UHGV virus genome: UHGV-1981267
Length of the DNA stretch: 31,152 nucleotides
Reading direction: 5' to 3' (one strand)
From: a virus
Below the pieces are notes generated by a model that saw only the letters and a program-made list of their open reading frames with translations, was not told the origin of the DNA and ran no database searches. This document shows positions 3,273-26,022 of the stretch, in pieces (positions within the stretch are counted from its first letter, which is position 1; the number at the start of each line of letters is the position of its first letter). Made by a program: the position numbers and the translations under genes.

Positions 3273-3297
3273 GGCACCAGAAATGGTGCCTTTTTTA
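3273..3297 (+). terminator. Intrinsic terminator after J
   Basis: Stem GGCACC / GGTGCC with loop AGAAAT, followed by a run of six T. Confidence 0.6.
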
Positions 3298-3320
3298 TTG
3301 CAGAAAAGCGAGAGGTAATT

Positions 3321-3920
3321 ATGCGTAAATTATGTGCTGTTATTCTGTCCGCAGTAGTCTGGCTGGTTGCCGCTGGTACGCCAGCGAACGCAGCAGAGCA
3401 TCAGTCCACACTAAGCGCCGGGTATCTTCAGACCCATACTGATATGCCAGGCAGTGATGACCTGAAGGGCATTAACGTGAAATACCGTTATGAATTTACG
3501 GACACGCTGGGGCTGGTGACGTCATTCAGTTATGCCAATGCCAAAGATGAGCAAAAAACGCATTACAGCGATACCCGCTGGCATGAAGATTCAGTGCGTA
3601 ACCGCTGGTTCAGCATGATGGCGGGGCCATCTGTACGCGTGAATGAATGGTTCAGTGCTTATGCGATGGCAGGTGTGGCTTACAGCCGTGTTTCGACGTT
3701 CTCCGGGGATTATCTCCGCGTAACTGACAACAAGGGGAAAACGCACGATGTGCTGACCGGAAGTGATGACGATCGCCACAGCAACACGTCTCTGGCGTGG
3801 GGAGCTGGCGTGCAGTTTAACCCGACCGAATCCGTGGCCATTGATATTGCTTATGAAGGCTCCGGCAGTGGCGACTGGCGCACTGACGGTTTCATCGTGG
3901 GTGTCGGTTATAAGTTCTGA
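3321..3920 (+). CDS. lom: Lom-like outer membrane protein (Ail/Lom family)
   Basis: 199 aa with signal peptide. Near-colinear with lambda Lom as I recall it (EHQSTLSAGYL..., C-terminal DGFIVGVGYKF). Same position as in lambda. Confidence 0.9.
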   Translation: MRKLCAVILSAVVWLVAAGTPANAAEHQSTLSAGYLQTHTDMPGSDDLKGINVKYRYEFTDTLGLVTSFSYANAKDEQKTHYSDTRWHEDSVRNRWFSMMAGPSVRVNEWFSAYAMAGVAYSRVSTFSGDYLRVTDNKGKTHDVLTGSDDDRHSNTSLAWGAGVQFNPTESVAIDIAYEGSGSGDWRTDGFIVGVGYKF

Positions 3921-7797: not shown

Positions 7798-7826
7798 TAT
7801 CCCCTGCGATGCAGGGGATATTTCTT
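7798..7826. terminator. Bidirectional hairpin between convergent genes
   Basis: Perfect 10-bp stem TATCCCCTGC / GCAGGGGATA with 3-nt loop. T-rich on plus side (TTTCTT). Sits between the plus-strand membrane-protein gene and the sopB 3' end. Confidence 0.5.
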
Positions 7827-8790
7827 AATTATCAGTAGATTGTTCCTCTAGTAACAACTCAATTCTGCTTAGTATTTCTTTAGATATTTTTCGGCTATCA
7901 ATTTTTATAGTTACAAAATTACCTTTATATCTAGCCGTGATCCCTTCCCCATATTTTTTCTCGTCTTTTGTTTTTTCCTCGTCGCCAACTAGAACAGAGT
8001 CAGATAATATTTGTATAATCCGTGAAGCTTCTAAATCCTCGCCGTTTTTTTTAATTGCCAGAAGATGATGAGCAGCATTGCTCATGGCAGTCATGTTTTT
8101 TTTGTAGACCTTAAACAAAGAATCTCCAGCACGAGCTGACAGTTCTCCTGGATGATTGAAGATAGCTAATATATCTTTTGGTAGACCAGCTGTATTAATA
8201 CAGCGAGTGATAATATTTCTGTCTATATTTTCAGCCTCGGCTAATGCTTTAACGTTACCATCAAAGTCATTTAGCTTGCGTAAGTATCTCTTTCCTCTTT
8301 CGTATGCACTAATAGGCCTATAATCGTTACCAATTTGGGATAACCAATGCATCTGTTCATCGTCGAGATCACCTATTAAGACGCGATAGTCACATCCTGT
8401 TAATATCGCTGCTTTTCTTCTACGTGAGCCGTCAGCGACTTCAACGACTCCAGACACTTTTCTGGCGAAAGCTGGATTTTGTTGTCCAGACGTTAGAAAA
8501 GATGGGATTAAATCGGCTAGAGAGGATTCATTTAATAAATCTTGATCGCGTTCATTACCTAGCCATACCATTGTTGCCATTTCAACTTTATCTGCGGGAA
8601 TTGTCTCTAACTTAAAGTTAACATTACGTCCGCATACTGGCAAAGTTATGCTGTTACCGGTTAATGAACTCAGTTGACGTTTTAAATCACCAACCATAGG
8701 TGATACGGGCTGATGTTCAGGGGCATGATGATTATTACTCATAATGCGATTAATATCTGGAGCATTTTTTAGAAGAGAGCGCTGTTTCAT
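7825..8790 (-). CDS. sopB: Partition protein SopB (ParB family)
   Basis: 321 aa. Blocks match recalled F SopB (ITLPVCGR, GNERDQ, IPSFL-GQQ-PAF, ADGSRRRKAA, GNDYRP-SAYERG). Start overlaps sopA stop. Confidence 0.9.
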   Translation of the reverse strand: MKQRSLLKNAPDINRIMSNNHHAPEHQPVSPMVGDLKRQLSSLTGNSITLPVCGRNVNFKLETIPADKVEMATMVWLGNERDQDLLNESSLADLIPSFLTSGQQNPAFARKVSGVVEVADGSRRRKAAILTGCDYRVLIGDLDDEQMHWLSQIGNDYRPISAYERGKRYLRKLNDFDGNVKALAEAENIDRNIITRCINTAGLPKDILAIFNHPGELSARAGDSLFKVYKKNMTAMSNAAHHLLAIKKNGEDLEASRIIQILSDSVLVGDEEKTKDEKKYGEGITARYKGNFVTIKIDSRKISKEILSRIELLLEEQSTDN

Positions 8791-9956
8791 TATTCGTTCT
8801 CCCAGCGAGGTTTTATTAGATCATCAAAAATTTCTCGGCAAACAGGGTCCCATATAGAAACAGCATTTCTCCATGCATTCAATGTTGAACGTTGGTTTGC
8901 TGCTTGTTCAAATACTGTTCTCATTTTTATCTGGCCTTTACCTACTTCATCGGTAACGCGTACAACCTGACGTAATACCATTGATCCCCATGTATTTCTT
9001 ATTTGTTCTTCCATCCATCGTGATTGATTCCCTGTAGTGAGACTATATTTAGTCAGAAGTAAGCGAACGGTTGGCTCAAATCCACCTAGGTCAACGCTTT
9101 CCAATAGATCGAGAAGCATTGTGAAAAACTGTAGAACAGAAGCGTAATCAAATAATTCTGCAGGTGTAGCAACAACAATAACGTCAGCGGCACAAACAAC
9201 GTTAATGGTTCCTGTACCGAGGTTCGGAGCACTATCTATAACGATAACATCGTAGTTATCCCAAACTGATTCAATAGCTGCGCGCAGCATAAGGTGTGGA
9301 GGATGAGGCAATTTACCCTGAGCATGATATTGCATGAGATCTGTTTCTATACGATGTAAAGCTAGGCAGCTAGGGATAATGTCTAGCCCAGGCCAACATG
9401 TTGGCTTTATAGCATATTCAGCGTTATCGCGTTCTCCTAAGTAAAATGGCAGTAAAGTATCCTCGGCATGGATATGTAAATCAGGAACATAACCGTGATA
9501 CATAGAGGCCGTGCCTTGAGGATCGTTACCTTCAACCAAAAGAACACGATGACCTTGTAATGCTAACCATTGAGCTTGATGTACCGCAGACGATGTTTTA
9601 TAAACGCCGCCTTTGTGTGACATAACGGCAAGCACAACAGGGTTTTTATCTTGTGGTCGTTGGTTTGGGTTGCCAAAAACTGCTCGCATACTGTTGATTT
9701 GATCTATGGTATAACCAGCACGACGTTCAATTCTTCCTCTCATTTCAAAGTCAGGTGCAGGTAAACGCCCGCTCTTCTCAGCATCTCTAATTGCTTGAGG
9801 AGTTACACCAATTAAATCTGCTACTTCAGTTATACCCCATCGGCGGGTGATACGCCGAGCTTCAGGACTATCATCACCGAATTGAGCGATAGCAATTGCT
9901 TGGGTCATTTCTTGACCTCTCGTAACACAATCTTGCAATAACTTTTTCAAAGACAT
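8790..9956 (-). CDS. sopA: Partition ATPase SopA (ParA family)
   Basis: 388 aa with deviant Walker A (KGGVYKTS). N-terminal HTH region. Same length as F SopA. Confidence 0.92.
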   Translation of the reverse strand: MSLKKLLQDCVTRGQEMTQAIAIAQFGDDSPEARRITRRWGITEVADLIGVTPQAIRDAEKSGRLPAPDFEMRGRIERRAGYTIDQINSMRAVFGNPNQRPQDKNPVVLAVMSHKGGVYKTSSAVHQAQWLALQGHRVLLVEGNDPQGTASMYHGYVPDLHIHAEDTLLPFYLGERDNAEYAIKPTCWPGLDIIPSCLALHRIETDLMQYHAQGKLPHPPHLMLRAAIESVWDNYDVIVIDSAPNLGTGTINVVCAADVIVVATPAELFDYASVLQFFTMLLDLLESVDLGGFEPTVRLLLTKYSLTTGNQSRWMEEQIRNTWGSMVLRQVVRVTDEVGKGQIKMRTVFEQAANQRSTLNAWRNAVSIWDPVCREIFDDLIKPRWENE

Positions 9957-12683: not shown

Positions 12684-13457
12684 CTATTTATTGGTGATTT
12701 CTGCTGGCTTTAGCTGCGCGGATAACTGTTCAAGTTTTTGAACTGCCAGTTCAAAATGCGCGGGTAACGCCTTTTCCAGATCAGAGTTAATATCGGTGAT
12801 GGGTAAATCACCACACGACATACTCCGCCTACCCCCACGAACAACATCACGCAACAACTCTCGTTCATACGTGCGCATGTTCCCCAATGCCGACTCAGCA
12901 GCCGTCAAAATCCGGCGCAGTTCTGCCGTAATTGCTGGCAAATCATCAACCGTTATGGGGTTCGGGGATGGATTACGACACGCCCGACGCAAAGCTAACC
13001 ATACACCGCTAATCCAGGCATTTCGGTACTGAAAACTTTGTGCTATATCGTTAATCAGCCCTCGCAGATACTCTTTCTGCCTCCAGTTCAACGGCTCCGC
13101 TGCTCGCATTGGCTCAGGCTCGATGTAAACGTACTCTCCATTTTTGCGAATAGAGGGCAAGACTTCGTTCGTTACCCATTTGCGAAACCGCCAAGCTGTT
13201 GTGCCTTGCTTCACCGCGTCACGGCAGCGGAGAATGAGCGTGTAAAGACCTGATTCACTGATGATATTGGCTTGACCTTGACGGCCTATGTTAAACATAG
13301 ATCGCTCATCTTCATCTAATCGAGCGATAGCTTGTGTGACATTCTGGATGCTTAAAGCATTGCAAATATCATTCGCCACAAACCACGGATCGCCGTTAAT
13401 CATCACTACACGTACCTGATGCTCTTCCTGAAAGGAAAAGACTGCTAACGCGCTCAT
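12684..13457 (-). CDS. Antirepressor (Bro-N / AntA-like N-terminal domain)
   Basis: 257 aa. N-terminal FSFQ...VRVVMINGDPWFVANDICNAL is a typical Bro-N motif. Last gene of an immA-like operon. Confidence 0.8.
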   Translation of the reverse strand: MSALAVFSFQEEHQVRVVMINGDPWFVANDICNALSIQNVTQAIARLDEDERSMFNIGRQGQANIISESGLYTLILRCRDAVKQGTTAWRFRKWVTNEVLPSIRKNGEYVYIEPEPMRAAEPLNWRQKEYLRGLINDIAQSFQYRNAWISGVWLALRRACRNPSPNPITVDDLPAITAELRRILTAAESALGNMRTYERELLRDVVRGGRRSMSCGDLPITDINSDLEKALPAHFELAVQKLEQLSAQLKPAEITNK

Positions 13458-13869: not shown

Positions 13870-14070
13870 GTCGTGCTACCACCAGAGTTCTCACGCTCTT
13901 GAATGGTGGTAGCCCAAGCGGGGGTGAGAATACCGGCAAACGAAGAAACCGGCCTGACCGAAGTCAGCCCCGCCTGAGCCACCATAAATCGGATATGCGC
14001 AGGTATATACACACAAAAAAACACGCTGGCGCGTGTTGTGCGCTTCGTTTATCCGGGTTCTCACGCCCGG
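13870..14070 (-). ncRNA. Structured leader / candidate small regulatory RNA of the immA operon (P4 CI / N15 CA RNA-like)
   Basis: On the transcribed strand: GUGAGAAC (from 14057..14064), then UUCUCACCCC (13921..13930), then GUGAGAAC (13887..13894) inside a 10-bp stem (13875..13913). The middle element is complementary to both others. Confidence 0.4.
14012..14035 (-). terminator. Intrinsic terminator inside the immA leader
   Basis: On the minus strand: CACGC-GCCA-GCGUG hairpin followed by UUUUUUUGUGU. Confidence 0.5.
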
Positions 14071-14145
14071 CTGCGGAATTTGCCGCAGCGGAGTAACTTT
14101 ACCGTCAAAACGACGCACACGTCAATAATTTGCAAAGACATTTTA

Positions 14146-15270: not shown

Positions 15271-15462
15271 TTACTCCCCGTTCACCGAAAAATCACGATA
15301 GAAACGTTTCCACATACGATAAGTCTGCGCGAGTTGTTCACCACGAAACATCGCCTTCCTGGCCTTCATGTTTTCCTTGTGAGACTTTCGATCTATGAAC
15401 CAAAACCATTGCTGGAACACACAAAGCAAGAGACACAAAGATAATATCCACTGATTACCCAT
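15271..15462 (-). CDS. Possible small membrane protein
   Basis: Internal Met of track ORF 15271..15579. Hydrophobic segment WILSLCLLLCVFQQWFWFI. Overlaps repA stop by a few nt. Confidence 0.3.
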   Translation of the reverse strand: MGNQWILSLCLLLCVFQQWFWFIDRKSHKENMKARKAMFRGEQLAQTYRMWKRFYRDFSVNGE

Positions 15463-18400
15463 AGAAAGCGCCCTGCTCTTCGTAGCTGCATGGGCTATTC
15501 CCGGTAATGTATTCACGTAACCGCCGCAGTTCATTGCTGGATAAGTGATCCATGAACTCTGTGAGGTACAGAGATGCAAACGTCATAGCTATGCTGGCTG
15601 ATGACCATGATGACATAGTGGCCAGCTCCTCACCGGAAAGCGCACTCATCGCCCAGGACTCAGGTACAACCACTGGCAACACAGCCAAAGCCTCAGAAAT
15701 TACTGAATGAGGGGCGTTTTGAACCTGCTCGTTTGTGGATCGCGTTTTATCATCCATATATATATTGAGATCCAAATCGCGATCCATTTCGATGGCGGTC
15801 TTCTCGGCTTTACGCGTTTTCAGGGTTAGGCCATCTTTCTGACGCTGAGCAAGAATATCCAGCATAAATGCCGCTGATTCAGGCTCAACAAAACGCAAGG
15901 TTGGACGCTTATCGCCGTCTCTGCCGCGACGTTTACCTGTTTTAAGGCCAAGAGAGTCGCAAATGTTTTTAAACAACGCTTCCGGCACTTTAGGCTTCCC
16001 TTTTGGCGTCATAAAACCACCAATGTGCAGAACGTTATTCAACAGGTCACGGCGTTCGGCTGTCATGAGGTTATCTCGAGCGAATTTGAGACGCTCCTGA
16101 GTCGCCTCGCCGGTCATAGTCTCAGGGTTGATACCGCAGTCGATAAAGTACTGCCGGAGAGTTGCTGATTTAAGCGCATAGAAACCGCGCGCCCCGACTT
16201 CAACAGTAGGAGTAGCTTTTACCTTGTAGTCGATTATTCCAAGGAATTTAGTTTTAAAGACATCATCAGCCTGCTCGCGAGTCATCGCGGTCACTACAAA
16301 ATATTGCCACTGTCCCGCCTGACGGTATGCGTAGGTAAAATTGATGGCTGCTTCTTCCCGGTCGTAACGACGAGCTGTTACCTCATCTAAAAGCATTGTT
16401 TCATAGCGGCGAATTTTGTCTCGAGCACCATCGAAATAGAATTTCAGCGTGCCTTCTTCAACCGGTAGTTTCAGTTCGTTCTCAATATCCCAGCGGACAA
16501 GTTTTGCTTGTTCTTCAAGCGTCAGCGCGCGTTTTTTTAGCAGTTCTTCACGCTCTGATTCTTGTGGAGTTTCTGTATTGAGATGCAGATCCAGTGTCTG
16601 TTCCCACACAATATCCCGCGCTTCTTTACGCAGATCTTTACCGATATCATTCGCAGCATAATCGGTGGCCAGCGGCGATACCTTATAACCGTCGCTGTGC
16701 ATGATGCAGATCATGTTGCTGGCGTAGTCGTTACGCGCAGACGCTTCAATTGCGGCTGCTTTAATTTTCATCCTGGTAAAGTCGGTATTGGCCACCCCCA
16801 TTGATATACGGTCGCCATCGAAAACGACATCCGTCAGTTCACCGTTCATGCCTGCGGTAGCAAGCAATGCCTGGGCGAATGCTCGTTCTATTTTTTGCGG
16901 GTCAGTTTCACGTTTTGCGCGAGCTTTATCAAAGCCGATAATAAATTCTTTTGCTGTACGGTCGCGGCGTAGCATTTGCACTGCGTCGCTGGGTACAACT
17001 TCACCACAGAACATGCCGAAATGACGGTCAAAATGTTTTTGCTCAATTGACACACCGGATGAAATAGACGGGCTATAAATCAGGCCGTCGTATTTTTTGA
17101 CCATCTTTTTCGGTTGATTGGTAAATGCTTCAACTTCTGGCTCTGGTTTGTTTTTCTGGTTTACACACAGAAATTTCTTACCAGGAAAATGCATTCTCAG
17201 GGTGGCGGTCACATCTTCTGCAAAGGTGGAGCTGTCGGTGGCCAACATGATTTTTTCGCCATTCGATACAGCTTTCACCACCTCGGTCATAATGCGATCT
17301 TTTTCTGTATAAAAAACCCGGATTGGCTCACCTGTTTCGCGGTTGCGAAGATCAACAGGTAATTCAATTACGTGGATCTGCAGCCATGCCGGTAAACCTA
17401 GTTCTTCACGGCGTTTCATAGCCAGTTCAGCTAGGTCAACCAGCAGATCGTTCGCATCAGCATCCACCATTATTGGGTGTTGTTCCGTTCTGGCCAGCGC
17501 GTCAATTAACGTATTGAATACAGCCACCGGGTTTTCCATAGCCCGACCGGAAAGAACGGCACGTAGCCCTTGCGTGGCCTCGTCAAAGCCAAAATAGTCG
17601 TGCTGGCGCATCAATGGTTGCCAGCAGTTTTTAACAATCGAGTTTATGCAGATGGTCAGTTTACTGGCGTATGGAGCCATTTCCTGATAGCCAGGGTCCT
17701 GATAGTGCAGGATATCGGCTTTTACACCTTTTCCTTCTGTCATCATTTCCCACAGGCCACCAATAAGGGAAACACGGTGAGCAACAGAGATACCACGTTC
17801 TGAGCTATGCATTAAAGGTCGTAACAATCCAGTAGATTTGCCGGAACCCATACCAGCACGAACGATGACTATCCCCTGTAGTGATTGCACATACTTCAGG
17901 ACGTCATCGGTCATTACCGAAGTTTCAAAACGCTTATAGGTGATATGTTGAGGACGTTTATTGGGATCAGTTATTCGTTCGCTGAATGAGCGCGGAGCCT
18001 GGGCAATACGGCACTTTTTATTCAGGCGACGGGCAATGTGGTCTTTTACCGTAGCGCGATAGATATTTTCCAGCCCAATTTCACGCAGGACGATGCAGAA
18101 CATGTTAAATAAGTCTGACGGACTGTTAGGAACCGGACAGGTTAGCATGCCAATATCCACTGCTCTCAGCAGCTCTTTGGCAAAAGTACGACGGTTATCC
18201 CGCTTAATTGTCTTCAGGCGGTTGAGCGTCAGAGATAGCAAATCAGTGCCAGTTTTCAGGCGGTTTGCAGTTGCAAACAGTTGACGTGCTGTTTCACGAA
18301 GTCCACGTAGTTTGTGCAGGTCGTTGAAGTCACTGCACTCCATTTGCGGATCGTCTTCAAAAGTTGGATAGACGCAGCGGACATCGTTGAATTTCGATAA

Positions 18401-19450
18401 GATTTCATAGCCAGTCCGCAGGCCGGTATTCCCTTTTCCTTCTGTAGCTGATTTCCGGTCATTATCCAGTGCGCAGGTGATTTTTGCCGCCGGGTACATG
18501 TTTACCAGTTGTTCCACAACATGAACCATGTTGTTAGCGGATACAGCGACAACCACAGCGTCAAAGCGTTTATCTTTTTTCGTGGCAAGCCAGATGGATG
18601 CACCAGTAGCAAAACCTTCTGTAACAGCGATGTTTTGCGCCCCTTTCAGCTCACCGATAACAAAGCAGGCACCGACGAAATCGCCGCTGGTTACGGCGCT
18701 GGTCTGGTATTTTCCACCTTGTTTGTCGATTCGCTGCCAACCAACAATACGACCATCGTAACGACCGTCCAGGTGAGCCAGAGGGATAGACATATACGTG
18801 GTTGGCCCCCTGCTCCATTTTGCGCTGTCGTGACTGGTCACGCGACGCACATCACACGAATTAAAAACGTCACGAATACCTTTTTTAATCGCATATGGCC
18901 ATGAGCCGTCTTCTGCAGGAGCATGTTCCCAAGCACTGTGGAATGCCAGCCATCCCAGCAAACGTTCATGGTCCATTTGGTTGTTTTTCAGGTCATTAAT
19001 TCGTTTTTGTTCTTCACGGCGACGACGTGCTTCGGCCTGACGTTCTATTCTTGCCCGTTCTTCTTCCGGTTGTGCGACCACGGTCGCATTATTCCGTTGT
19101 TGCTCACGGCGATATTCAGAAAACAGGAAGGAGAAACCGCTCCATGAGCCAGCATCGCTGCCTTTATGGACGAAGTTAATGAACGGGTAATCAATCCCTT
19201 TGCTGTGTTCCAGCCGGGAGTAAATTTCTACGCGTCCTTTGAGGCTCTTCTCGAGAGCTTCTGGAGATGTTTTATTGTATGAAGAGTAACGCTCAACACC
19301 CCCGCGAGGGTTGAGTTGGATGTTGTCGGAACAGGCAGACCAGTTGATACCAGCCATCTGTGCCAGCTCGGTTAGTTCATCCCGTGCTGCTTCAATTAGC
19401 GAGAACGGATCGCTGCCAAAGCGATCCGCATAGAAATCGTTTAATGTCAT
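15455..19450 (-). CDS. repA: Replication protein RepA (primase plus helicase, N15 RepA-like)
   Basis: 1331-aa ORF. Walker A GMGSGKS in the central helicase region. Size and position next to cB as in N15. Confidence 0.9.
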   Translation of the reverse strand: MTLNDFYADRFGSDPFSLIEAARDELTELAQMAGINWSACSDNIQLNPRGGVERYSSYNKTSPEALEKSLKGRVEIYSRLEHSKGIDYPFINFVHKGSDAGSWSGFSFLFSEYRREQQRNNATVVAQPEEERARIERQAEARRRREEQKRINDLKNNQMDHERLLGWLAFHSAWEHAPAEDGSWPYAIKKGIRDVFNSCDVRRVTSHDSAKWSRGPTTYMSIPLAHLDGRYDGRIVGWQRIDKQGGKYQTSAVTSGDFVGACFVIGELKGAQNIAVTEGFATGASIWLATKKDKRFDAVVVAVSANNMVHVVEQLVNMYPAAKITCALDNDRKSATEGKGNTGLRTGYEILSKFNDVRCVYPTFEDDPQMECSDFNDLHKLRGLRETARQLFATANRLKTGTDLLSLTLNRLKTIKRDNRRTFAKELLRAVDIGMLTCPVPNSPSDLFNMFCIVLREIGLENIYRATVKDHIARRLNKKCRIAQAPRSFSERITDPNKRPQHITYKRFETSVMTDDVLKYVQSLQGIVIVRAGMGSGKSTGLLRPLMHSSERGISVAHRVSLIGGLWEMMTEGKGVKADILHYQDPGYQEMAPYASKLTICINSIVKNCWQPLMRQHDYFGFDEATQGLRAVLSGRAMENPVAVFNTLIDALARTEQHPIMVDADANDLLVDLAELAMKRREELGLPAWLQIHVIELPVDLRNRETGEPIRVFYTEKDRIMTEVVKAVSNGEKIMLATDSSTFAEDVTATLRMHFPGKKFLCVNQKNKPEPEVEAFTNQPKKMVKKYDGLIYSPSISSGVSIEQKHFDRHFGMFCGEVVPSDAVQMLRRDRTAKEFIIGFDKARAKRETDPQKIERAFAQALLATAGMNGELTDVVFDGDRISMGVANTDFTRMKIKAAAIEASARNDYASNMICIMHSDGYKVSPLATDYAANDIGKDLRKEARDIVWEQTLDLHLNTETPQESEREELLKKRALTLEEQAKLVRWDIENELKLPVEEGTLKFYFDGARDKIRRYETMLLDEVTARRYDREEAAINFTYAYRQAGQWQYFVVTAMTREQADDVFKTKFLGIIDYKVKATPTVEVGARGFYALKSATLRQYFIDCGINPETMTGEATQERLKFARDNLMTAERRDLLNNVLHIGGFMTPKGKPKVPEALFKNICDSLGLKTGKRRGRDGDKRPTLRFVEPESAAFMLDILAQRQKDGLTLKTRKAEKTAIEMDRDLDLNIYMDDKTRSTNEQVQNAPHSVISEALAVLPVVVPESWAMSALSGEELATMSSWSSASIAMTFASLYLTEFMDHLSSNELRRLREYITGNSPCSYEEQGAFYG
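15736..15786. other. Candidate replication origin element inside the repA 3' region
   Basis: Inverted repeat TGGATCGCG ... CGCGATCCA flanking the AT tract CATATATATATT. Three GATC sites within about 50 bp. Confidence 0.35.
19073..19088. other. sopC-like centromere palindrome (inside repA coding sequence)
   Basis: TGCGACCACGGTCGCA: 7-bp inverted arms with 2-bp spacer. One base per arm different from the F sopC core TGGGACC-AC-GGTCCCA as recalled. Confidence 0.7.
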
Positions 19451-19695: not shown

Positions 19696-20292
19696 TCATC
19701 TACCCTCAACCATGAATGATTTGATCGTTCCGACTATTTGGTGAACAAATTCAAGATCGCTTTTCCTGAAGATGGCGCGTTGTGAGTTTGTTCCATCCAG
19801 ATAGTAATTTTCATCATCAAAACGGGCCAGGCGCTGGATAGTGATATTTCCTGCAGTATCACGAACCAGAACATCCTCGCCGGGGACCAGTTCCAGCGCA
19901 GAATCGACCAGGAGAAAATCGCCTGGCTGATAGTTTCCCTGCGTAAGATTGCTGATAGTTAACGCATACACAGTATTGCGCTGGCTGATGAATGGCAGGA
20001 ATCGCTCAGTATTTGGAACCTGTCCCGGCTTCCACTCTTCATCCGGCCCACTTTCAGTTGTGCCAATAACAGGAATGCGATCAGGGTCATATTCTGTCCC
20101 ATATAGCACCCAATGCACTGGCTTGCGTAAGCACTTAGCCAGGGCAATACCTATCTCCAGTGACGGCATTACGTCGCCACGTTCTAAGTTTTGGACGCCT
20201 GCTATAGAGATATCGACAGCCTCAGCAACTTCTCGCAACGTCAGCTTCATCTCTAAACGGCGTGCTTTCAGTCGTTCGCCTCGTGTTTTCAT
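19696..20292 (-). CDS. cB: Prophage repressor CB (HTH plus LexA/S24-like C-terminal domain)
   Basis: 198 aa. N-terminal HTH (LTLREVAEAVDISIAGVQNLERG). C-terminal domain typical of CI/LexA-type repressors. Divergent from cro. Confidence 0.88.
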   Translation of the reverse strand: MKTRGERLKARRLEMKLTLREVAEAVDISIAGVQNLERGDVMPSLEIGIALAKCLRKPVHWVLYGTEYDPDRIPVIGTTESGPDEEWKPGQVPNTERFLPFISQRNTVYALTISNLTQGNYQPGDFLLVDSALELVPGEDVLVRDTAGNITIQRLARFDDENYYLDGTNSQRAIFRKSDLEFVHQIVGTIKSFMVEGR

Positions 20293-20605: not shown

Positions 20606-21305
20606 GTATATACGCAGCTGCGTCTCTACGGCATTGGCTGATGTTCATTATCGCCAGCGTGGCATTCTGGAGGTCCAGCTTGAGCAGATGCGTCTCGGTA
20701 GGTCAGGACGGTTTAACAATAAACCAGTCTGGTCAATCAGTGTGGGGGATGATAACTCATACGAAGTGTCCGTTCCTGCTGAGCCGGTTAGATTCCACCA
20801 GGGGAAAACATTTAAACAATCATCAATGTTGCTCACTGATATTGATTTTCAGAGCGCCAGCTGGCGCAGGGCTATTGGTCAGTTGAATAACGAGGAATCA
20901 GCCTGGCTTTATTATTGCTACGGATGCAAGCCTGATTACAACAATGATGTGATTGTTTGTCAGTGGTTATGGCTTGATTTTCTGGTTGCTCATTCGGGGG
21001 GCGGCTTTAAAAAAATGAAGGCCTCCACGAAAAAAGCCATGCGGAAATTGATTTATTACGCGGCACAGCAGGTTAAATCAGAACTTACGTGTGCTGAAGC
21101 AGTTGATGAGAGAGAACAGGACAGGCATCTGAGTTTTCTACTGAATATATCTATTGATAGCTGGAGACAAGATTATAAAGAGCGCTGGCTTTTAATTAAG
21201 TCGCGATGTCTGAGCTTAAATCGAACTGCATTATTAAATGCGGCGGAGAAGCGCAGTGAAATCATCAAACGCCATCGGGCAGGAAGTGCCATTCTGCCTT
21301 TGTAA
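20595..21305 (+). CDS. Possible late-gene antiterminator (Q-like), otherwise hypothetical
   Basis: 236-aa ORF with GTG start overlapping the cro stop. Cys cluster YYCYGC...C. Position after cro as recalled for N15 Q. No sequence match could be verified. Confidence 0.4.
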   Translation: MELEYIRSCVSTALADVHYRQRGILEVQLEQMRLGRSGRFNNKPVWSISVGDDNSYEVSVPAEPVRFHQGKTFKQSSMLLTDIDFQSASWRRAIGQLNNEESAWLYYCYGCKPDYNNDVIVCQWLWLDFLVAHSGGGFKKMKASTKKAMRKLIYYAAQQVKSELTCAEAVDEREQDRHLSFLLNISIDSWRQDYKERWLLIKSRCLSLNRTALLNAAEKRSEIIKRHRAGSAILPL

Positions 21306-21312
21306 ACAAGTT

Positions 21313-21558
21313 ATGTTCAGGAAACCGTCGAAGCCAGAATTAAGGTATTCGGGGGTAAGAAATGAATATGTTATCTGGTGTCCAACTTGTGGTTACAGGA
21401 CACGACCAGATAGTAATAAGCAGTCTGTAATTGCCGATTGGTATTTATCAAATCAGCCAGGTAATAAGCATATAGAAAATCTTTGGATTAAGCGTTACTT
21501 GGAAATCAGAGAGGGTGCGACCGTGGTCGCACAAGAAAATGAAAATAACGCCATTTAA
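21313..21558 (+). CDS. Small zinc-ribbon protein
   Basis: Internal ATG of track ORF 21238..21558. CPTCGY motif. Contains a sopC-like site at its 3' end. Confidence 0.4.
   Translation: MFRKPSKPELRYSGVRNEYVIWCPTCGYRTRPDSNKQSVIADWYLSNQPGNKHIENLWIKRYLEIREGATVVAQENENNAI
21516..21531. other. sopC-like centromere palindrome
   Basis: TGCGACCGTGGTCGCA. Confidence 0.7.
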
Positions 21559-21765: not shown

Positions 21766-22365
21766 GTGACTAATCAGATTATTTACGACAGGAAACGGTC
21801 TGATGTAATGATTGACCTTGAAACAATGGGTACTAACACATGTGCTCCAATTGTTTCTATCGGGGCAGTGTTTTTTTCTCCAGAAAGTGAGGAATTAGGT
21901 CCTACTTTTTATGTGCCAGTGAATCTCAGAAGCTCGATGTTGAATGGTGGTATCGCCGATGGTGATACCATTTTATGGTGGTTGAAACAGAGCAAGGAAG
22001 CCAGAGCCGCTATTTGTACTAATGATGCCCTTGATATTAAGGATGCACTTTTTGAATTATCACACTTTATTACTTGCCATGCATGTAATTTAAAAAAGTT
22101 GAAAGTATGGGGAAATGGAGCAACGTTCGATAATGTAATTTTACGCGGTGCTTATGAGCGCGTTGGCTTAGCCTGTCCGTGGGAATATTTTAATGATCAG
22201 GATGTTCGAACAATCGTTAATCTTGGTCAGTTTATTGGTTTTAATCCTAAAAAAGATATGCCATTTGATGGCGAACGACACAATGCCCTGGCTGATGCTA
22301 TTCATCAGGCTAAATATGTATCCGCAATTTTCTCCCGTCTTGTAAAAGGGCAAGGAGAATCGTAA
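21766..22365 (+). CDS. 3'-5' exonuclease, DnaQ-like DEDDh family
   Basis: GTG start with SD GAGGAG 8 nt upstream. Motifs IDLETMG (Exo I), GNGATFDNVIL (Exo II), ERHNALADA (Exo III). Confidence 0.75.
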   Translation: MTNQIIYDRKRSDVMIDLETMGTNTCAPIVSIGAVFFSPESEELGPTFYVPVNLRSSMLNGGIADGDTILWWLKQSKEARAAICTNDALDIKDALFELSHFITCHACNLKKLKVWGNGATFDNVILRGAYERVGLACPWEYFNDQDVRTIVNLGQFIGFNPKKDMPFDGERHNALADAIHQAKYVSAIFSRLVKGQGES

Positions 22366-22784
22366 TGGCAAAGGCTTTTACACCAGAACAGAGGGAAGAA
22401 CTGAATAAACAAATTGTGGAACTCGTGCGCCTGAATGGACGAGGAACGGTTAGGCAACTTGCGGATGAAACTGGTATTAGCCGGTGTGCTGTTAGTCGTT
22501 TATCAAGAGAGCTTGCTGCCAGTGGTGATTTGTATATCTCTGGCTCCGGGATATTTCTGTCTGCACAAGCACGCAAGGACTGGCAAAACGCCCGTAAAAA
22601 ACTATCAAGAGTAAAGCCGAAGAAATCGGTAGTGGTTGATCCAGACCTTATCTGGTCATTACCTGACGGAGAAATACGTCGTTACGACAGGCGCTTGAAC
22701 ATGATTTGTCACGATTGCCGGAAAAGTGAAGTTATGCAGCGTGTGCTGGCTTTTTATCAGGGAAATTTACAGGAGGTGGCGTAG
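22365..22784 (+). CDS. Putative DNA-binding protein (HTH-like)
   Basis: 139-aa ORF. Segment TVRQLADETGISRCAVSRLSREL resembles an HTH. Start overlaps upstream stop. Confidence 0.45.
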   Translation: MAKAFTPEQREELNKQIVELVRLNGRGTVRQLADETGISRCAVSRLSRELAASGDLYISGSGIFLSAQARKDWQNARKKLSRVKPKKSVVVDPDLIWSLPDGEIRRYDRRLNMICHDCRKSEVMQRVLAFYQGNLQEVA

Positions 22785-23074
22785 TGAATATCGACACCAC
22801 GATAACGATCGATACGGCCCTAAATATCGGTCTGGCACTTCTCGGTTGGTTTTACATCATGTTCAGTGCGGGGAAGTGGGCGGCCTCTGTTTTTCTAAAG
22901 CAGTGGGGAAAGCACCGCAAACAGGAAAGACGCCAGAAAGTGTTAGAGGCGTTCTATGACGCATTTGAACTTAGCCGCATTGAGCCAGGCACAACAGCCA
23001 AGATAGCGAAAAAAGGCGACCTGATGATAGTGATGTTCCGACAGGAGAGAGCAGAGAAAGGGGAATCAGCATGA
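22784..23074 (+). CDS. Small membrane protein
   Basis: 96-aa ORF with one hydrophobic segment (LNIGLALLGWFYIMF). Confidence 0.4.
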   Translation: MNIDTTITIDTALNIGLALLGWFYIMFSAGKWAASVFLKQWGKHRKQERRQKVLEAFYDAFELSRIEPGTTAKIAKKGDLMIVMFRQERAEKGESA

Positions 23075-23730
23075 AATTTTCCAAATTTTCTGAGTTGGTG
23101 AATCGTATTTTGTCCAACAACCACAGCCATCGTCGCGATATGGATGTAACAATCGTTATTCATTCGCCTGGCAGCATTGGTTCAACACCCTCAGTTGAGG
23201 TTCAGTCAATTCACGCTGGTTTTGATTGGGATTCCGGGAAAGTGCTGATTTTCCCAGCACAGCCACTGACTACGCTAACACCAGAACAGATTACTGATAT
23301 TACTGATAGTGTGCGCAAAGGTCAGTCCTGGCACGCATATCAGGAATACAAGAAGCATAAAGAGCAGTTGGAAAAATTGTCGATTGAACTGGATGCTGCA
23401 AAACAGCGCGTAGCAGAACTGGAAGCCAAACCTGTAAGCCAAACTTACAAGTTAACTTTTGAGCAATGGCTGGAACAGCAGCATGACAAAATTGATGTTG
23501 ATTGTGGATGCGTAAGTACTGAAATGTTTATGCACTGGATAAGGGTCGCGTATGAGGCTGGCAACTCTCCGGTAACTCCGGATGGTCATGTTCAGTTTTC
23601 TGTTTCACTTCCTGCAGCGTTTGGTGGAGATAAATATTTTATTGATGGTGTATTTCAACCTTTGAGATATGAGCGTGACTGTGAAAGGGCGGTTGTGGCC
23701 GCTGGCGGTGTAGTTAATTGGGTTAAGTAA
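23071..23730 (+). CDS. Hypothetical protein with central coiled coil
   Basis: 219-aa ORF. Heptad-like segment KEQLEKLSIELDAAKQRVAELEAK. No catalytic motif recognised. Confidence 0.5.
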   Translation: MKFSKFSELVNRILSNNHSHRRDMDVTIVIHSPGSIGSTPSVEVQSIHAGFDWDSGKVLIFPAQPLTTLTPEQITDITDSVRKGQSWHAYQEYKKHKEQLEKLSIELDAAKQRVAELEAKPVSQTYKLTFEQWLEQQHDKIDVDCGCVSTEMFMHWIRVAYEAGNSPVTPDGHVQFSVSLPAAFGGDKYFIDGVFQPLRYERDCERAVVAAGGVVNWVK

Positions 23731-23745
23731 TTTTCAGGAGGATTT

Positions 23746-24072
23746 ATGGCGCTGACACCGGCAGAACGGCAAAGGAGACGCAGGGAACGGTTGAAGAAGG
23801 AAGGCACATCAAGACGGGACTGGATTCTAGAACCTGACGAGTTACGTATGTTGGGGGAAATTTGTGTATTGCGTAGACCAGGGCGAGTTCCATATTCGGA
23901 GAACGAAGTCATTGGTTTGCTGATCAGGAAAAACTATAAGGAGCTGCAGAAGCAGCTATCTACTACTTGCCCGCGATGTGGTCAAAAAATGCCTGTTTCA
24001 GAATGCATTTTTGATGGCGAAGGGTCATGCCACCTTACAACCACGAGGCTGAAACTTGCGCTCAAAGCGTGA
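23746..24072 (+). CDS. Hypothetical basic protein with zinc-ribbon-like CPRCG...C...C
   Basis: 108-aa ORF. SD AGGAGG upstream. Arg-rich N-terminus. Confidence 0.5.
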   Translation: MALTPAERQRRRRERLKKEGTSRRDWILEPDELRMLGEICVLRRPGRVPYSENEVIGLLIRKNYKELQKQLSTTCPRCGQKMPVSECIFDGEGSCHLTTTRLKLALKA

Positions 24073-24090
24073 CTGGTCACGGAGGGATAA

Positions 24091-24333
24091 ATGGATAAAA
24101 AGGCATTGCTTTTTGAAATGATACGAAAACGGAGCGAAAAGAGCTTTTCTGATGGTGGTGATGGGTTTGTTTTCGCTTCGATGCTTGCTTTTGATGTTGG
24201 GTTAAATAGCAGAATTGTTAAAAGGATGCTTGATTCTGCTGTCCGTACTGGACTTCTTGAGAAAGTTGATCGTGGCATAGGGAGAGAGCATAAGTATCGG
24301 GCCACACAGCAGTTTACGCAGTTAATTCATTGA
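24091..24333 (+). CDS. Hypothetical protein
   Basis: 80-aa ORF with SD GGAGGG upstream. Confidence 0.45.
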   Translation: MDKKALLFEMIRKRSEKSFSDGGDGFVFASMLAFDVGLNSRIVKRMLDSAVRTGLLEKVDRGIGREHKYRATQQFTQLIH

Positions 24334-24415
24334 AAATTGACCGTAAAGTTTGAGTTTTACCCTGTAATTTTATACAGTACAAACAACCTTTTTTAGTTAA
24401 ATGGTATGAGATTTA

Positions 24416-24619
24416 ATGTCTGAAGCAGCCGTATCAACTCTTGAACAACTCGATTCAAATTTAAGAGATATTGACGCCATTCTGGATCTGGTTAGCGTCA
24501 CCCTGGCTTCTCCAGAAGCCAGCCTACATATTGGTGAGGTTTCACGACTCATCAACATGTCGCGAGAGATTGCCCAGCATTGTCAGAAAACTATCGCTGT
24601 TGAGCGTTCACATCATTGA
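24416..24619 (+). CDS. Hypothetical protein
   Basis: 67-aa ORF. Convergent with the toxin-antitoxin pair. Confidence 0.4.
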   Translation: MSEAAVSTLEQLDSNLRDIDAILDLVSVTLASPEASLHIGEVSRLINMSREIAQHCQKTIAVERSHH

Positions 24620-24661
24620 TGCACACCCCGCCCTTCTGGACGGGGTAGTAAAAGAGTCTAA

Positions 24662-24949
24662 TTAATAAACAGCGCGAATATCGATGGCTGCGCCGCAGGC
24701 ATGAGCATATTTAGCCAAAGTTTTCATACTTGCCCCTAAAGGATTGCTTTCCAGGCGGCTGATGGCTGACGGTCGTAACCCCATTCGTTCAGCCAGAGCT
24801 GATTTCGTTAAACCTGCTCTTTCCCTCATTTCGTATAACATTTCGACCATCTCCAGCTCTTTGTCGGCCTCTTCATATCCTTTGACGGCTTCTGGAGTGT
24901 TGAGGAGTTTTTCTTTTACTTCGTTAAACGGGATGCCTTTCGCTTTCAT
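24662..24949 (-). CDS. HTH antitoxin (HigA / Xre-like)
   Basis: 95 aa. HTH LTKSALAERMGLRPSAISRLES. Immediately downstream of, and overlapping, the toxin gene. Confidence 0.8.
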   Translation of the reverse strand: MKAKGIPFNEVKEKLLNTPEAVKGYEEADKELEMVEMLYEMRERAGLTKSALAERMGLRPSAISRLESNPLGASMKTLAKYAHACGAAIDIRAVY

Positions 24950-25260
24950 CAGTTCATCTCCTTCAGGCGAGTTCTGGCGATTTCGATAGCCTTCACCGGT
25001 GTTTTCTGTGTCTTTTTTACAAATGCATGCAATAGATAAATTTCGTTACCAGTCGCGTAGACGTACAGCGTTCTTGCGATGTTTTTATCCCCTACTCGTA
25101 GTTCAAAAAGCCCTCCACCTATTACACGGCTATGGGGCATCTTCAGTTTGTTGCCTTCTTTCTCCAGTCGCTCAATTAATCTGGCCATGCGACCTCGCAA
25201 ATCATCTGGTAGTTCAAGCAGTTCATCCAGTGCTGCAGGGTGGGTTATCACGTTAAACAT
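24949..25260 (-). CDS. RelE/ParE-superfamily toxin (HigB / Gp49-like)
   Basis: ATG at 25260 with SD GGAGG. Motifs GGGLFELRVGDK..IARTLYVYATGNEIYLLHAFVKKTQKTP typical of this toxin family. Track ORF extends to 25305. Confidence 0.8.
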   Translation of the reverse strand: MFNVITHPAALDELLELPDDLRGRMARLIERLEKEGNKLKMPHSRVIGGGLFELRVGDKNIARTLYVYATGNEIYLLHAFVKKTQKTPVKAIEIARTRLKEMN

Positions 25261-25425
25261 ATTATAGCCTCCACATCCATAAAATACACCAAAACAAGAA
25301 AACAATGTAAATTAAAAATTTCACTAAAAAGCGAAAAATAACACTGGATGTGTTCGTTTGGCAGAGTTACAGTTCGTGTCATTGAGGGGCAATAACCCAC
25401 TAACTATATGAATTTGGAGGATATT

Positions 25426-25888: not shown

Positions 25889-25894
25889 AAACTG

Positions 25895-25910
25895 TGCGAC
25901 CACGGTCGCA
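25895..25910. other. sopC-like centromere palindrome
   Basis: TGCGACCACGGTCGCA, within the longer palindrome CTGTGCGACCACGGTCGCACAG. Confidence 0.7.
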
Positions 25911-25930
25911 CAGCACAAAAACGAAAAAGC

Positions 25931-25960
25931 TTGGCAAAATTACGGTTTTTAGTTATTGTT
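25931..25960 (+). promoter_or_regulatory. Candidate sigma70 promoter (possible late promoter)
   Basis: TTGGCA (25931..25936), 18-bp spacer, TATTGT (25955..25960). Followed closely by hairpins and a terminator. Confidence 0.35.
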
Positions 25961-25997
25961 TTGTTAAGTTGGGTTTTTTGTACCCAACAGCCAACAA

Positions 25998-26022
25998 GCC
26001 GCCTTTATGGCGGTTTTTTTGT
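25998..26022 (+). terminator. Intrinsic terminator downstream of the candidate promoter (tR'-like)
   Basis: Stem GCCGCC / GGCGGT, loop TTTAT, then a 7-T run. A second hairpin GTTGGG...CCCAAC lies at 25968..25988. Confidence 0.6.

What the first reader, a model, noticed from the sequence alone, without database searches (positions are those of the whole stretch)
22365..24619. Run of six uncharacterised small genes between the exonuclease and the toxin-antitoxin pair
The run comprises an HTH-like protein, a one-TM protein, a 219-aa coiled-coil protein, a zinc-ribbon basic protein and two further small ORFs. They are densely packed with good SDs but no recognisable catalytic motifs. Early-region blocks like this often carry host-takeover or anti-defence functions in lambdoid phages.
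Basis: inference. Interest (0 to 1): 0.4.

Follow-up and report, generated by a model that had tools for sequence, protein, structure and literature searches.

The report
Mosaic early genes plus SOS antirepressor
The six small genes are real but are not one block: three are swappable accessory genes borrowed from lambda-like prophages, two are conserved genes of the N15 linear-plasmid phage family, and the sixth is very probably that family's DNA-damage-triggered switch gene (AntC), which databases leave unnamed.

Summary
The window is an N15-like linear plasmid-prophage of E. coli, 99.4% identical to phages YDC107_1 and PhiR46_1. All six ORFs exist at the stated coordinates and are under purifying selection. 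They fall into three groups.

1. o1-o3 (22365-23730) are an accessory cassette absent from N15, phiKO2, NAR688, KpLi5 and MStein. It holds a lambda-Ren/DUF977 winged-helix protein, a DUF4752 one-TM protein, and a modular coiled-coil protein. That last protein is an in-frame deletion chimera that lost a DUF551 C-terminal domain. o1 DNA occurs in 1585 of 5426 E. coli genomes, mostly in chromosomal prophages.

2. o4 and o5 are orthologues of N15 gp46 and gp47. Their function is unknown.

3. o6 (24416-24619) is not part of the packed operon. It sits after an 82-nt gap that holds the only exact LexA box in the 31-kb window. That box is the most conserved element of this spacer in six telomere phages. 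o6 is 54% identical to an unannotated N15 ORF in the same slot, and the cognate CB repressor lacks the LexA-type Ser/Lys dyad. o6 is therefore most likely the orthologue of AntC, N15's published LexA-controlled antirepressor.

The finding is ordinary and mostly already explained. The anti-defence reading has support only for o1.

The parts
22365..22784 (+). o1: 139-aa Ren/YdaW-family protein (DUF977) with an N-terminal winged HTH and the C-terminal motif CRxSxxMxRVLAxY. It is the first gene of the variable accessory cassette.
   Evidence: PF06163 3.9e-29. phrog_142 'Ren-like exclusion protein' 9.7e-42, against lambda Ren 1.6e-41 for the same family. BLASTP to lambda Ren matches only the last 20 aa. 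Absent from N15, phiKO2, NAR688, KpLi5 and MStein. Its DNA is in 1585/5426 E. coli genomes, almost all chromosomal. dN/dS is 0.20 against the E2348/69 prophage copy.
22784..23074 (+). o2: 96-aa DUF4752 protein with one N-terminal transmembrane segment (residues 12-30) and a basic tail. GTG start overlaps the o1 stop.
   Evidence: PF15944 1.5e-37 and phrog_667 2.9e-40. Hydrophobic 19-mer. About 92-95% nt identity in P1-like, D6-like and SSU5-like phage-plasmids and in chromosomal prophages.
23071..23730 (+). o3: 219-aa modular protein. It has an N-terminal domain, a coiled coil (about 87-119), a middle module, the linker AGNSPVTPDG and a 45-aa alternative C-terminal domain. It is an in-frame deletion chimera with its junction at 23556-23586.
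   Evidence: phrog_6026 2.3e-54 (N-terminal part) and phrog_368 6.2e-43. There are 1684 homologues, most carrying a DUF551 C-terminal domain instead. Window 22365-23586 equals pPEC011-4 locus 301-1522, and window 23556-24619 equals locus 2308-3371, with a 31-nt overlap at the linker. In the AF2 model only helix 87-119 is confident.
23746..24072 (+). o4: 108-aa orthologue of N15 gp46. It has a basic N-terminal helix, a strand-helix-helix (RHH-like) pattern and a C-terminal Cys4 zinc-ribbon-like motif. It is a probable DNA-binding regulator.
   Evidence: 79% identical to N15 gene 46 and 77-82% to the four other telomere phages. phrog_536 'transcriptional regulator' 5.6e-32. R8, R13, C78 and C95 are invariant and C75 nearly invariant across 43 distant members. 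No Pfam family among those 43 members. Also present in epsilon15/phiV10-like and Vibrio phages.
24091..24333 (+). o5: 80-aa orthologue of N15 gp47. It is small, basic and winged-helix-like, and is specific to telomere phages.
   Evidence: 67.5% identical to N15 gene 47. phrog_13995 2.8e-47. Found in 16 phage records, all telomere phages including PY54 and P840. Only weak wHTH-type Pfam hits.
24350..24379 (+). SOS-controlled promoter of o6: -35 TTGAGT (24350-24355), a 17-nt spacer and -10 TACAGT (24373-24378). The LexA box is the 20-mer 24360-24379, with core CTGTAATTTTATACAG at 24362-24377, and it overlaps the -10.
   Evidence: It is the only exact CTGT-N8-ACAG in the 31,152-bp window. It is the top-scoring site with a LexA PSSM: 20.3 bits, inside the training range 16.2-26.2, with the next site at 15.9. 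It is the most conserved block of the spacer in six phages. The hexamers are my own reading; they score 8 of 12, below the scan threshold.
24416..24619 (+). o6: 67-aa acidic protein, the probable orthologue of the N15 antirepressor AntC. It carries the invariant core motif SPEASLH.
   Evidence: 54% identical to an unannotated N15 ORF at NC_001901 39619-39807, between genes 47 and 48. Homologues occur only in 13 telomere-phage records and in 37 protein clusters, all named 'hypothetical'. phrog_6301 3.7e-35 and phrog_10889 'anti-repressor' 4.5e-8. 26 of 67 residues are invariant in 6 phages.
24623..24649 (.). GC-rich hairpin between o6 and the convergent antitoxin gene. It is a probable stop for the convergent transcripts but has no T-run.
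   Evidence: dG is -15.9 kcal/mol on the + strand and -21.4 on the - strand (z -3.6). N15 has a stronger hairpin at the same place.
19696..20292 (-). CB-type prophage repressor, the inferred target of o6. It lies outside the finding's coordinates.
   Evidence: 78% identical to N15 CB. LexA S119 aligns with T and K156 with Q. Its Peptidase_S24 score is below the Pfam cut-off. N15 CB has been shown to be non-proteolytic (PMC10432266).

Best explanation
The run is a composite of three units in the right arm of an N15-type linear plasmid-prophage.

Unit A (o1-o3, together with the upstream exonuclease) is a replaceable accessory cassette. It comes from the gene pool of lambdoid, P1-like and SSU5-like prophages and occupies the slot that holds genes 41-45.1 in N15. 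It encodes a Ren-family winged-helix protein, a small DUF4752 membrane protein, and a coiled-coil scaffold protein. The C-terminal domain of that third protein has been exchanged by recombination at a conserved linker. These genes are transcribed from the early-right promoter after repressor loss. They most likely modulate infection outcome (exclusion escape, lysis-lysogeny bias) rather than carry out core functions.

Unit B (o4, o5) is the conserved gp46-gp47 pair of telomere phages, probably two small DNA-binding proteins. Their role is unknown.

Unit C (o6) is a separate transcription unit. In the lysogen, host LexA sits on a box that overlaps the -10 of the o6 promoter. DNA damage cleaves LexA and o6 is made. 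o6, the AntC orthologue, then binds the non-cleavable CB repressor and takes it off its operators. That opens cro-Q and the early-right operon, which includes o1-o5.

Shown here: the gene structures, family memberships, mosaic distribution, the LexA box and its conservation, the orthology to the N15 ORF, and the loss of the catalytic dyad in CB.
Inferred: that the N15 ORF is the published antC, that o6 binds CB, and every function proposed for o1-o5.
For: Element identity:
- SopAB, a TelN-size ORF, a 1331-aa RepA, a cB-like repressor, cro and Q are present, with 99.4% matches to Ravinvirus phages and 46-kb E. coli plasmids.

Mosaic structure:
- o4, o5 and o6, plus the Lar-like gene, the 75-aa ORF, gp50 and gp51, are present in all five relatives. 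The exonuclease and o1-o3 are present in none.
- o4-o6 DNA occurs in 17 of 5426 E. coli genomes, all on plasmids. o1 DNA occurs in 1585 of 5426, nearly all chromosomal.
- The chimeric origin of o3 is shown by the two overlapping matches to pPEC011-4.

Unit C:
- o6 follows an 82-nt gap and has a weak SD.
- The window has a single exact LexA box, and it scores 20.3 bits.
- The box is conserved in N15, NAR688, KpLi5 and MStein, with one mismatch in phiKO2, although the proteins are only 49-51% identical in the global alignment.
- N15 has only two credible LexA boxes. One precedes umuD-like gene 26. The other precedes this unannotated ORF.
- The literature states that N15 induction depends on antC, a LexA-controlled antirepressor gene separate from immA and immB (PMC4488713 and PMC3121763; PMC11652158).
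- N15 CB is non-proteolytic (PMC10432266). The window's CB is 78% identical to it and lacks the Ser/Lys dyad.
- o6 has a weak PHROG 'anti-repressor' match, and so does the N15 ORF.
- In the NAR688 lysogen proteome none of the o4-o6 homologues was detected, as expected for repressed genes.
Against: - The primary paper (Mardanov and Ravin 2007) is not in the library. The coordinates of antC in N15 could not be read, so the identification rests on elimination and on my recollection that antC lies between genes 47 and 48.
- No database names any family member as an antirepressor.
- The promoter hexamers are weak (8 of 12) and were not picked up by the scan.
- No binding or complex prediction between o6 and CB could be run.
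- For o1-o5 there is no functional evidence at all. AF2 models were poor (pLDDT 57 and 51) and no solved-structure relative exists.
- The link between lambda Ren and DUF977 comes through PHROG only. Lambda Ren itself does not hit Pfam DUF977.
Confidence: 0.75

Rival explanations
1. The six genes form one co-regulated early block of host-takeover or anti-defence genes.
For: All six lie downstream of cro-Q on the same strand and upstream of the late promoter. o1 is in the Ren-like exclusion family. A Lar-like restriction-alleviation gene lies just upstream. o1-o3 are accessory and horizontally mobile, as anti-defence genes often are.
Against: o6 has its own LexA-box promoter and is an orthologue of a regulatory locus. 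o4-o6 are lineage-core genes, not accessory ones. There are no significant PADLOC hits and no anti-defence family hits. The two annotated proteins nearest to o3 point elsewhere: published data for lambda Ea22 show a pro-lysogenic effect, not anti-defence (PMC7093339, PMC10834534).
Confidence: 0.15
2. o6 is SOS-regulated but is not an antirepressor. It could instead be a small SOS effector such as a DinI-like RecA modulator, a division inhibitor or a toxin.
For: LexA control by itself does not specify function. In PY54 the syntenic slot carries a LexA box followed by a DinI-like gene and then antA. No member of the o6 family is annotated.
Against: o6 has no similarity to DinI or to any Pfam family. 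The family is confined to phages that carry N15-type CB repressors and is absent from PY54, whose switch differs. N15 needs an antirepressor because CB is not cleaved, and this is the only free LexA-controlled ORF in N15. There is also a weak anti-repressor PHROG match.
Confidence: 0.08
3. o4 and o5, rather than being passive neighbours, form one regulatory module with o6. For example, they could set the threshold of antC expression or enforce commitment after induction.
For: o4-o5-o6 are strictly syntenic in six telomere phages. o4 looks like an RHH plus zinc-ribbon DNA binder and o5 like a winged helix. o5 is confined to telomere phages.
Against: o4 also occurs in epsilon15-like and Vibrio phages that lack o5 and o6. 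PY54 keeps o5 without o4 or o6. The spacer alignment shows no conserved operator-like repeat other than the LexA box.
Confidence: 0.15

Closest known systems
AntC of phage-plasmid N15 (LexA-controlled antirepressor of CB; Mardanov and Ravin 2007, as cited in PMC4488713 and PMC3121763)
   Same: o6 occupies the same slot, between the gp47 homologue and the convergent Tad-Ata-type TA pair. It has the same size class (67 vs 70 aa) and a conserved LexA box about 40 nt upstream. It is 54% identical, and the partner repressor is 78% identical to N15 CB.
   Different: The protein is only half identical, so specificity for its own CB is assumed rather than shown. No public record of either phage annotates it as AntC.
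Other LexA-controlled small antirepressors: Tum of coliphage 186, and GfoA and GftA of the Salmonella Gifsy prophages (PMC3121763)
   Same: The logic is the same. A non-cleavable repressor is inactivated by a small protein whose gene lies outside the immunity region and is repressed directly by LexA.
   Different: No detectable sequence similarity was tested or found, apart from the weak phrog_10889 match. Tum carries a DinI-like half that o6 lacks.
Lambda Ren (ren gene, downstream of P)
   Same: o1 and lambda Ren both match phrog_142 at about 1e-41. They share a winged HTH and the C-terminal CRxSxxMxRVLAxY motif.
   Different: o1 is 43 aa longer and belongs to Pfam DUF977, which lambda Ren does not hit. 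Here it follows an exonuclease, not replication genes. No Rex system is known to be relevant to this phage.
Ea22 and DUF551-type modular proteins of the lambdoid exo-xis region (PMC10834534, PMC7093339)
   Same: o3 shares the tripartite design of an N-terminal segment, a coiled coil and a swappable C-terminal domain. Close relatives carry DUF551, as the Ea22 V2 variant does. o3 and lambda Ea22 share the phrog_368 match.
   Different: o3 has no Ead_Ea22 Pfam signature and no BLASTP similarity to lambda Ea22. It has lost the DUF551 domain through a 786-bp deletion. It sits in a PR-type operon of a telomere phage, not between exo and xis.
N15 gp46 and gp47
   Same: o4 and o5 are clear orthologues (79% and 67.5% identical) in the same order.
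   Different: Nothing is known about their function in N15 either.

Membership tests
N15 AntC-type LexA-controlled antirepressor | Sequence and positional orthology to the N15 locus | tested here: met
   54% identity over 63 aa by tblastn (1e-15 against the phage collection; 1.1e-20 against the N15 locus alone). Same position between the gp47 homologue and the TA pair in 6 phages.
N15 AntC-type LexA-controlled antirepressor | LexA operator in the promoter | tested here: met
   CTGTAATTTTATACAG lies at 24362-24377 and is unique in the window. It is the top PSSM site at 20.3 bits and is conserved in the alignment of 6 phages.
N15 AntC-type LexA-controlled antirepressor | Cognate repressor is not self-cleaving | tested here: met
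   CB is 78% identical to N15 CB. The LexA Ser119 and Lys156 positions are Thr and Gln. The S24 score is below the cut-off. N15 CB has been shown experimentally to be non-proteolytic (PMC10432266).
N15 AntC-type LexA-controlled antirepressor | The N15 ORF at 39619-39831 is the gene published as antC | not testable with these tools
   The primary paper is not held. The identification is by elimination: the only other credible LexA box in N15 precedes the umuD-like gene 26, and antC is described as separate from immA and immB.
N15 AntC-type LexA-controlled antirepressor | Binds CB and induces the prophage | not testable with these tools
   This needs an experiment or a multimer structure prediction.
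Lambda Ren / DUF977 | Profile match above the family threshold | tested here: met
   PF06163 scores 101.9 bits against a cut-off of 22.1. phrog_142 is matched at 9.7e-42 by o1 and at 1.6e-41 by lambda Ren.
Lambda Ren / DUF977 | Direct similarity to lambda Ren across the protein | tested here: inconclusive
   BLASTP aligns only 20 C-terminal residues (50% identity, E 9e-6). Lambda Ren has no DUF977 hit at E<=0.1.
Lambda Ren / DUF977 | Position immediately downstream of the replication genes | tested here: not met
   Here o1 follows the exonuclease, and repA lies on the other side of the immunity region. The feature is met by the chromosomal copy in E2348/69.
Ea22 (Ead_Ea22) | Ead_Ea22 signature or similarity to lambda Ea22 | tested here: not met
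   The Pfam scan of o3 gave no Ead_Ea22 hit. BLASTP to lambda Ea22 gave E 0.36. The only link is a shared phrog_368 match.
Ea22 (Ead_Ea22) | N-terminal segment, coiled coil and variable C-terminal domain | tested here: met
   Alignment A6 and the AF2 helix at 87-119. The architecture is as described in PMC10834534.
DUF551 domain proteins | Presence of the DUF551 domain | tested here: not met
   o3 has no PF04448 hit. The domain is present in relatives and was lost here by deletion. NCBI nevertheless names identical proteins 'DUF551 domain-containing'.
DksA/TraR C4 zinc-finger proteins (considered for o4) | CxxC-X17-CxxC finger, acidic N-terminal helix tip, and a significant profile match | tested here: not met
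   The best PDB profile hit is TraR at E 0.031, which is not significant. The o4 motif is CxxC-x8-C-x7-C and its N-terminus is strongly basic.
DUF4752 | Profile match above threshold | tested here: met
   PF15944 scores 127.9 bits against a cut-off of 27.

The most novel reading that the evidence does not exclude
The strictly syntenic gp46-gp47-AntC trio of telomere phages may be a single three-part induction module. In this reading an RHH/zinc-ribbon protein and a winged-helix protein, made only after derepression, feed back on the LexA-controlled antirepressor promoter or on CB operators and so make induction irreversible.

A separate novel possibility concerns o3. The conserved 31-nt linker in the o3 family may act as a built-in recombination site that shuffles C-terminal 'warhead' domains between neighbouring genes, giving a polymorphic host-interaction or anti-defence protein family.
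Probability: 0.12. Interest if true: 0.5.

Novelty: new member of a known kind. Interest (0 to 1): 0.25.

Why it matters
The practical value is for annotation. The SOS-controlled antirepressor that decides induction of N15-type phage-plasmids is labelled 'hypothetical protein', or is not called at all, in every public record examined, including N15 itself. These elements are common in Klebsiella and occur in clinical E. coli. Knowing where their induction switch lies helps predict which antibiotics will mobilise them.

The analysis also separates lineage-core genes (gp46, gp47, AntC) from a swappable cassette. That separation tells experimenters which genes to test for maintenance or regulatory roles and which for accessory roles. 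Nothing here overturns current understanding.

Tried and rejected
- Structure prediction of o4 (18-sequence alignment) and o3 (22-sequence alignment) gave mean pLDDT of 57 and 51. I ran no fold searches, because matches to such models would be meaningless.
- Sequence and profile searches of the PDB found nothing significant for o1-o5 or for the gp46 and AntC family profiles.
- The TraR/YbiI hit for the gp46 profile (E 0.03) was rejected. The cysteine spacing and the charge of the N-terminus do not fit.
- PADLOC gave only noise: CasR and AriA, each at E 0.003. NCBIfam gave nothing for the six.
- 'gp46' reported in the NAR688 lysogen proteome looked like evidence that o4 is expressed in lysogens. 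In that paper's numbering gp46 is the cB repressor, so I dropped the lead.
- The TF-smORF induction modules of Silpe et al. (PMC10432266) were considered for o5 and o6. Those modules lie between repA and telN or near par, and N15-like phages were excluded from that study.
- Rfam and tRNA scans found nothing inside the finding.
- The repeat search found no operator-like repeats in the block.
- A deep search with o4 found 68 representative clusters but no annotated relative.
- The primary AntC paper, the pKO2 genome paper and the Thomason and Court Ren paper are not held.
Full report
**What the window is**

The ORF map shows sopB/sopA-size genes (7825-9956, - strand), a 635-aa ORF of protelomerase size at the telN position of N15, and a 1331-aa RepA-type gene (15455-19450, -). 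After these come a cB-like repressor (19696-20292, -), cro, and a Q antiterminator (PF06323, 1.2e-82). The finding's 2255 bp is 99.4% identical over its full length to Escherichia phages YDC107_1 (genus Ravinvirus) and PhiR46_1. It is 99.3-99.7% identical to a handful of E. coli plasmids, most of them about 46 kb. The element is therefore an N15-type linear plasmid-prophage (telomere phage), not a classical lambdoid phage.

**Checking the observation**

The six ORFs are at the stated coordinates.
- o1-o5 have strong Shine-Dalgarno motifs and are separated by -1, -1, -4, 15 and 18 nt.
- o6 follows an 82-nt spacer and has a weak SD.
- Every ORF matches a Pfam or PHROG family.
- Non-synonymous divergence is far below synonymous divergence for o1, o4, o5 and o6 against diverged relatives.

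The descriptors HTH, one TM, coiled coil and basic zinc ribbon are all borne out.

**The block is a mosaic**

- tblastn against N15, phiKO2, NAR688, KpLi5 and MStein-2023a finds o4 (77-82% identical), o5 (61-68%) and o6 (52-55%) in all five, in the same order. The flanking Lar-like gene, 75-aa ORF, gp50 and gp51 are also found in all five.
- The exonuclease, o1, o2 and o3 are found in none of them. In N15 that slot holds genes 41-45.1.
- At the DNA level, o4-o6 occur in 17 of 5426 complete E. coli genomes, always on plasmids.
- o1 occurs in 1585 of 5426, almost always in chromosomal prophages.
- o2 and the 5' half of o3 recur at 92-95% identity in P1-like, D6-like and 108-kb phage-plasmids and in chromosomal prophages.

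**Unit A (o1-o3)**

*o1.* It is a DUF977 protein (3.9e-29). It matches phrog_142, 'Ren-like exclusion protein', at 9.7e-42. Lambda Ren matches the same profile at 1.6e-41. Direct BLASTP aligns only the last 20 residues, and lambda Ren itself does not hit Pfam DUF977. In the E2348/69 prophage the DUF977 gene sits directly after the replication genes, which is the ren position. Here it does not.

*o2.* It is a DUF4752 protein with one membrane segment. No literature on this family was found.

*o3.* It has 1684 homologues. Most share its first 180 residues or so but end in a DUF551 domain. Comparison with plasmid pPEC011-4 shows how this arose:
- Window 22365-23586 equals locus 301-1522.
- Window 23556-24619 equals locus 2308-3371.
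- The two matches overlap by 31 nt, which encode the shared linker AGNSPVTPDG.

The window's o3 is thus an in-frame fusion made by deleting 786 bp. The lost DNA carried the DUF551 domain, a 73-aa ORF and the 5' part of a 176-aa gene.

The design of N-terminal segment, coiled coil and swappable C-terminal domain is the one described for Ea22 proteins (PMC10834534). However, o3 has no Ead_Ea22 signature and no BLASTP similarity to lambda Ea22. I therefore do not file it as Ea22.

The function of all three genes is unknown. An accessory role in exclusion escape or lysis-lysogeny bias is inference from the Ren and Ea22 literature.

**Unit B (o4, o5)**

*o4.* It is the gp46 orthologue. A library-wide search found 68 representative clusters. 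An alignment of 43 members keeps R8, R13, C78 and C95 invariant and C75 nearly so. It shows a basic helix, a short strand, two helices and a Cys-rich end. I read this as a ribbon-helix-helix core plus a zinc ribbon; that reading is my inference. No member hits Pfam. The best PDB profile hit, TraR, is not significant and does not fit. The AF2 monomer model was poor. Homologues also occur in epsilon15/phiV10-like and Vibrio phages. In phiV10 the homologue is the last gene of the early-right region.

*o5.* It is the gp47 orthologue. It occurs only in telomere phages, including PY54 and P840.

**Unit C (o6 and its promoter)**

The o5-o6 spacer holds CTGTAATTTTATACAG at 24362-24377.
- It is the only exact CTGT-N8-ACAG in the whole window.
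- With a weight matrix built from E. coli LexA sites that I recalled from memory, the 20-mer at 24360-24379 is the best site in the window. It scores 20.3 bits against a training range of 16.2-26.2, and the next site scores 15.9.
- The box overlaps a possible -10 (TACAGT, 24373-24378), which lies 17 nt from TTGAGT. These hexamers are my own reading and fall below the scan threshold.

In an alignment of the same spacer from six phages, the box is the longest conserved block. It is exact in N15, NAR688, KpLi5 and MStein and has one mismatch in phiKO2. The downstream proteins are only 49-51% identical in the global alignment.

Homologues of o6 exist only in 13 phage records, all telomere phages of the N15/phiKO2 type. 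A profile search found 37 protein clusters, every one called 'hypothetical'.

In N15 the homologous ORF (39619-39807 matched) lies in the unannotated gap between genes 47 and 48. N15 has three exact boxes:
- one inside the tape-measure gene, with a GC-rich centre;
- one upstream of umuD-like gene 26;
- this one.

The literature states three relevant points:
- antC is a locus separate from immA and immB.
- antC is LexA-controlled.

These come from PMC4488713, PMC3121763 and PMC11652158. N15 CB is not cleaved after SOS induction (PMC10432266; see also PMC4997575). The window's CB is 78% identical to N15 CB and has Thr and Gln at the LexA Ser119 and Lys156 positions.

Both o6 and the N15 ORF give a weak match to a PHROG annotated 'anti-repressor'. 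By elimination, and from my own recollection that antC lies between genes 47 and 48, o6 is the AntC orthologue. The primary paper could not be read. This last step is therefore inference.

**Mechanism proposed**

1. In the lysogen, CB represses the early-right promoter and LexA represses the o6 promoter. Consistent with this, none of the homologues of o4-o6 was among the nine phage proteins detected in a NAR688 lysogen.
2. DNA damage removes LexA and o6 is made.
3. o6 inactivates CB.
4. cro, Q, the Lar-like gene, the exonuclease and o1-o5 are then transcribed.

A hairpin at 24623-24649 separates o6 from the convergent Tad-Ata-type TA pair.

**Comparison and novelty**

All six genes belong to families already catalogued, and the element is nearly identical to deposited phages. 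AntC-type control is published for N15, and the logic is shared with 186 Tum and the Gifsy antirepressors. Three things are new here:
- an AntC orthologue at about 54% identity;
- comparative evidence that fixes the LexA box and the ORF across the family;
- the chimeric origin of o3.

I rate the finding as a new member of a known kind, with low interest. The residual novel possibilities are a gp46-gp47-AntC module and linker-mediated domain shuffling in the o3 family. Neither is excluded, and neither is supported beyond synteny.

Noticed in passing
window 21515-21533 and 25893-25912: A 19-nt palindrome (GTGCGACCGTGGTCGCACA / GTGCGACCACGGTCGCACA) occurs twice and brackets the early-right region. 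The positions correspond to the 'putative plasmid partitioning site' features in the phiKO2 record, so these are probably dispersed SopB centromere sites of the N15 type.
   Followed up: partly
window 21238-21558 (+): A Lar-like restriction-alleviation gene (phrog_6795 1.5e-45; PF14354 below cut-off) overlaps the 3' end of Q by 68 nt. It is conserved in all five telomere-phage relatives but is not annotated in the RefSeq plasmid record. It is a better anti-defence candidate than any of the six ORFs.
   Followed up: partly
window 13902-14102 (-): Rfam finds a C4 antisense RNA (82 bits), isrK, and the a1/b1 target element. Together these are the immA anti-immunity system, next to a Bro-N Ant-like gene at 12684-13457.
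   Followed up: no
window 25931-26016 (+): A promoter-like site (TTGGCA-17-TATTGT) is followed by a strong terminator (25996-26016) just upstream of the methyltransferase gene. It lies at the position of the annotated late promoter and terminator of N15 and phiKO2, and is the probable site of Q action.
   Followed up: partly
L014 (PY54) 4403-4418, upstream of ORF56: PY54 lacks an o6 homologue. It has an exact LexA box (CTGTATACATATACAG) in front of a DinI-like gene followed by antA, in the slot downstream of its gp47 homologue. This suggests that SOS-controlled induction genes of different kinds occupy a syntenic position in telomere phages.
   Followed up: partly
L006 6270, L007 6303, L009 6301, L014 6367: A second exact CTGT-N8-ACAG (CTGT[AG]AAAATAAACAG) lies near the 5' end of the large DNA methyltransferase gene. 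In phiKO2 and PY54 it starts about 10 nt inside the annotated gene. It is seen in phiKO2, NAR688, KpLi5 and PY54 but is absent from this window and from N15. It could be LexA control of the methylase or a coincidence of coding sequence.
   Followed up: no
window 24662-25305 (-): The toxin-antitoxin pair is a Gp49/DUF891 (RelE-like) toxin with an Xre-HTH antitoxin. It is homologous to N15 gp49 and gp48, the Tad-Ata-type stabilisation system described by Dziewit et al. 2007 (cited in PMC2701414).
   Followed up: partly
L015 (pPEC011-4) 1951-2482: The gene annotated there as a partial pseudogene 'missing N-terminus' has an intact ATG-initiated 176-aa reading frame (MMHKAVAGEFQ...). It may be a real gene that shares the AGNSPVTPDG linker with its neighbour.
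   Followed up: no
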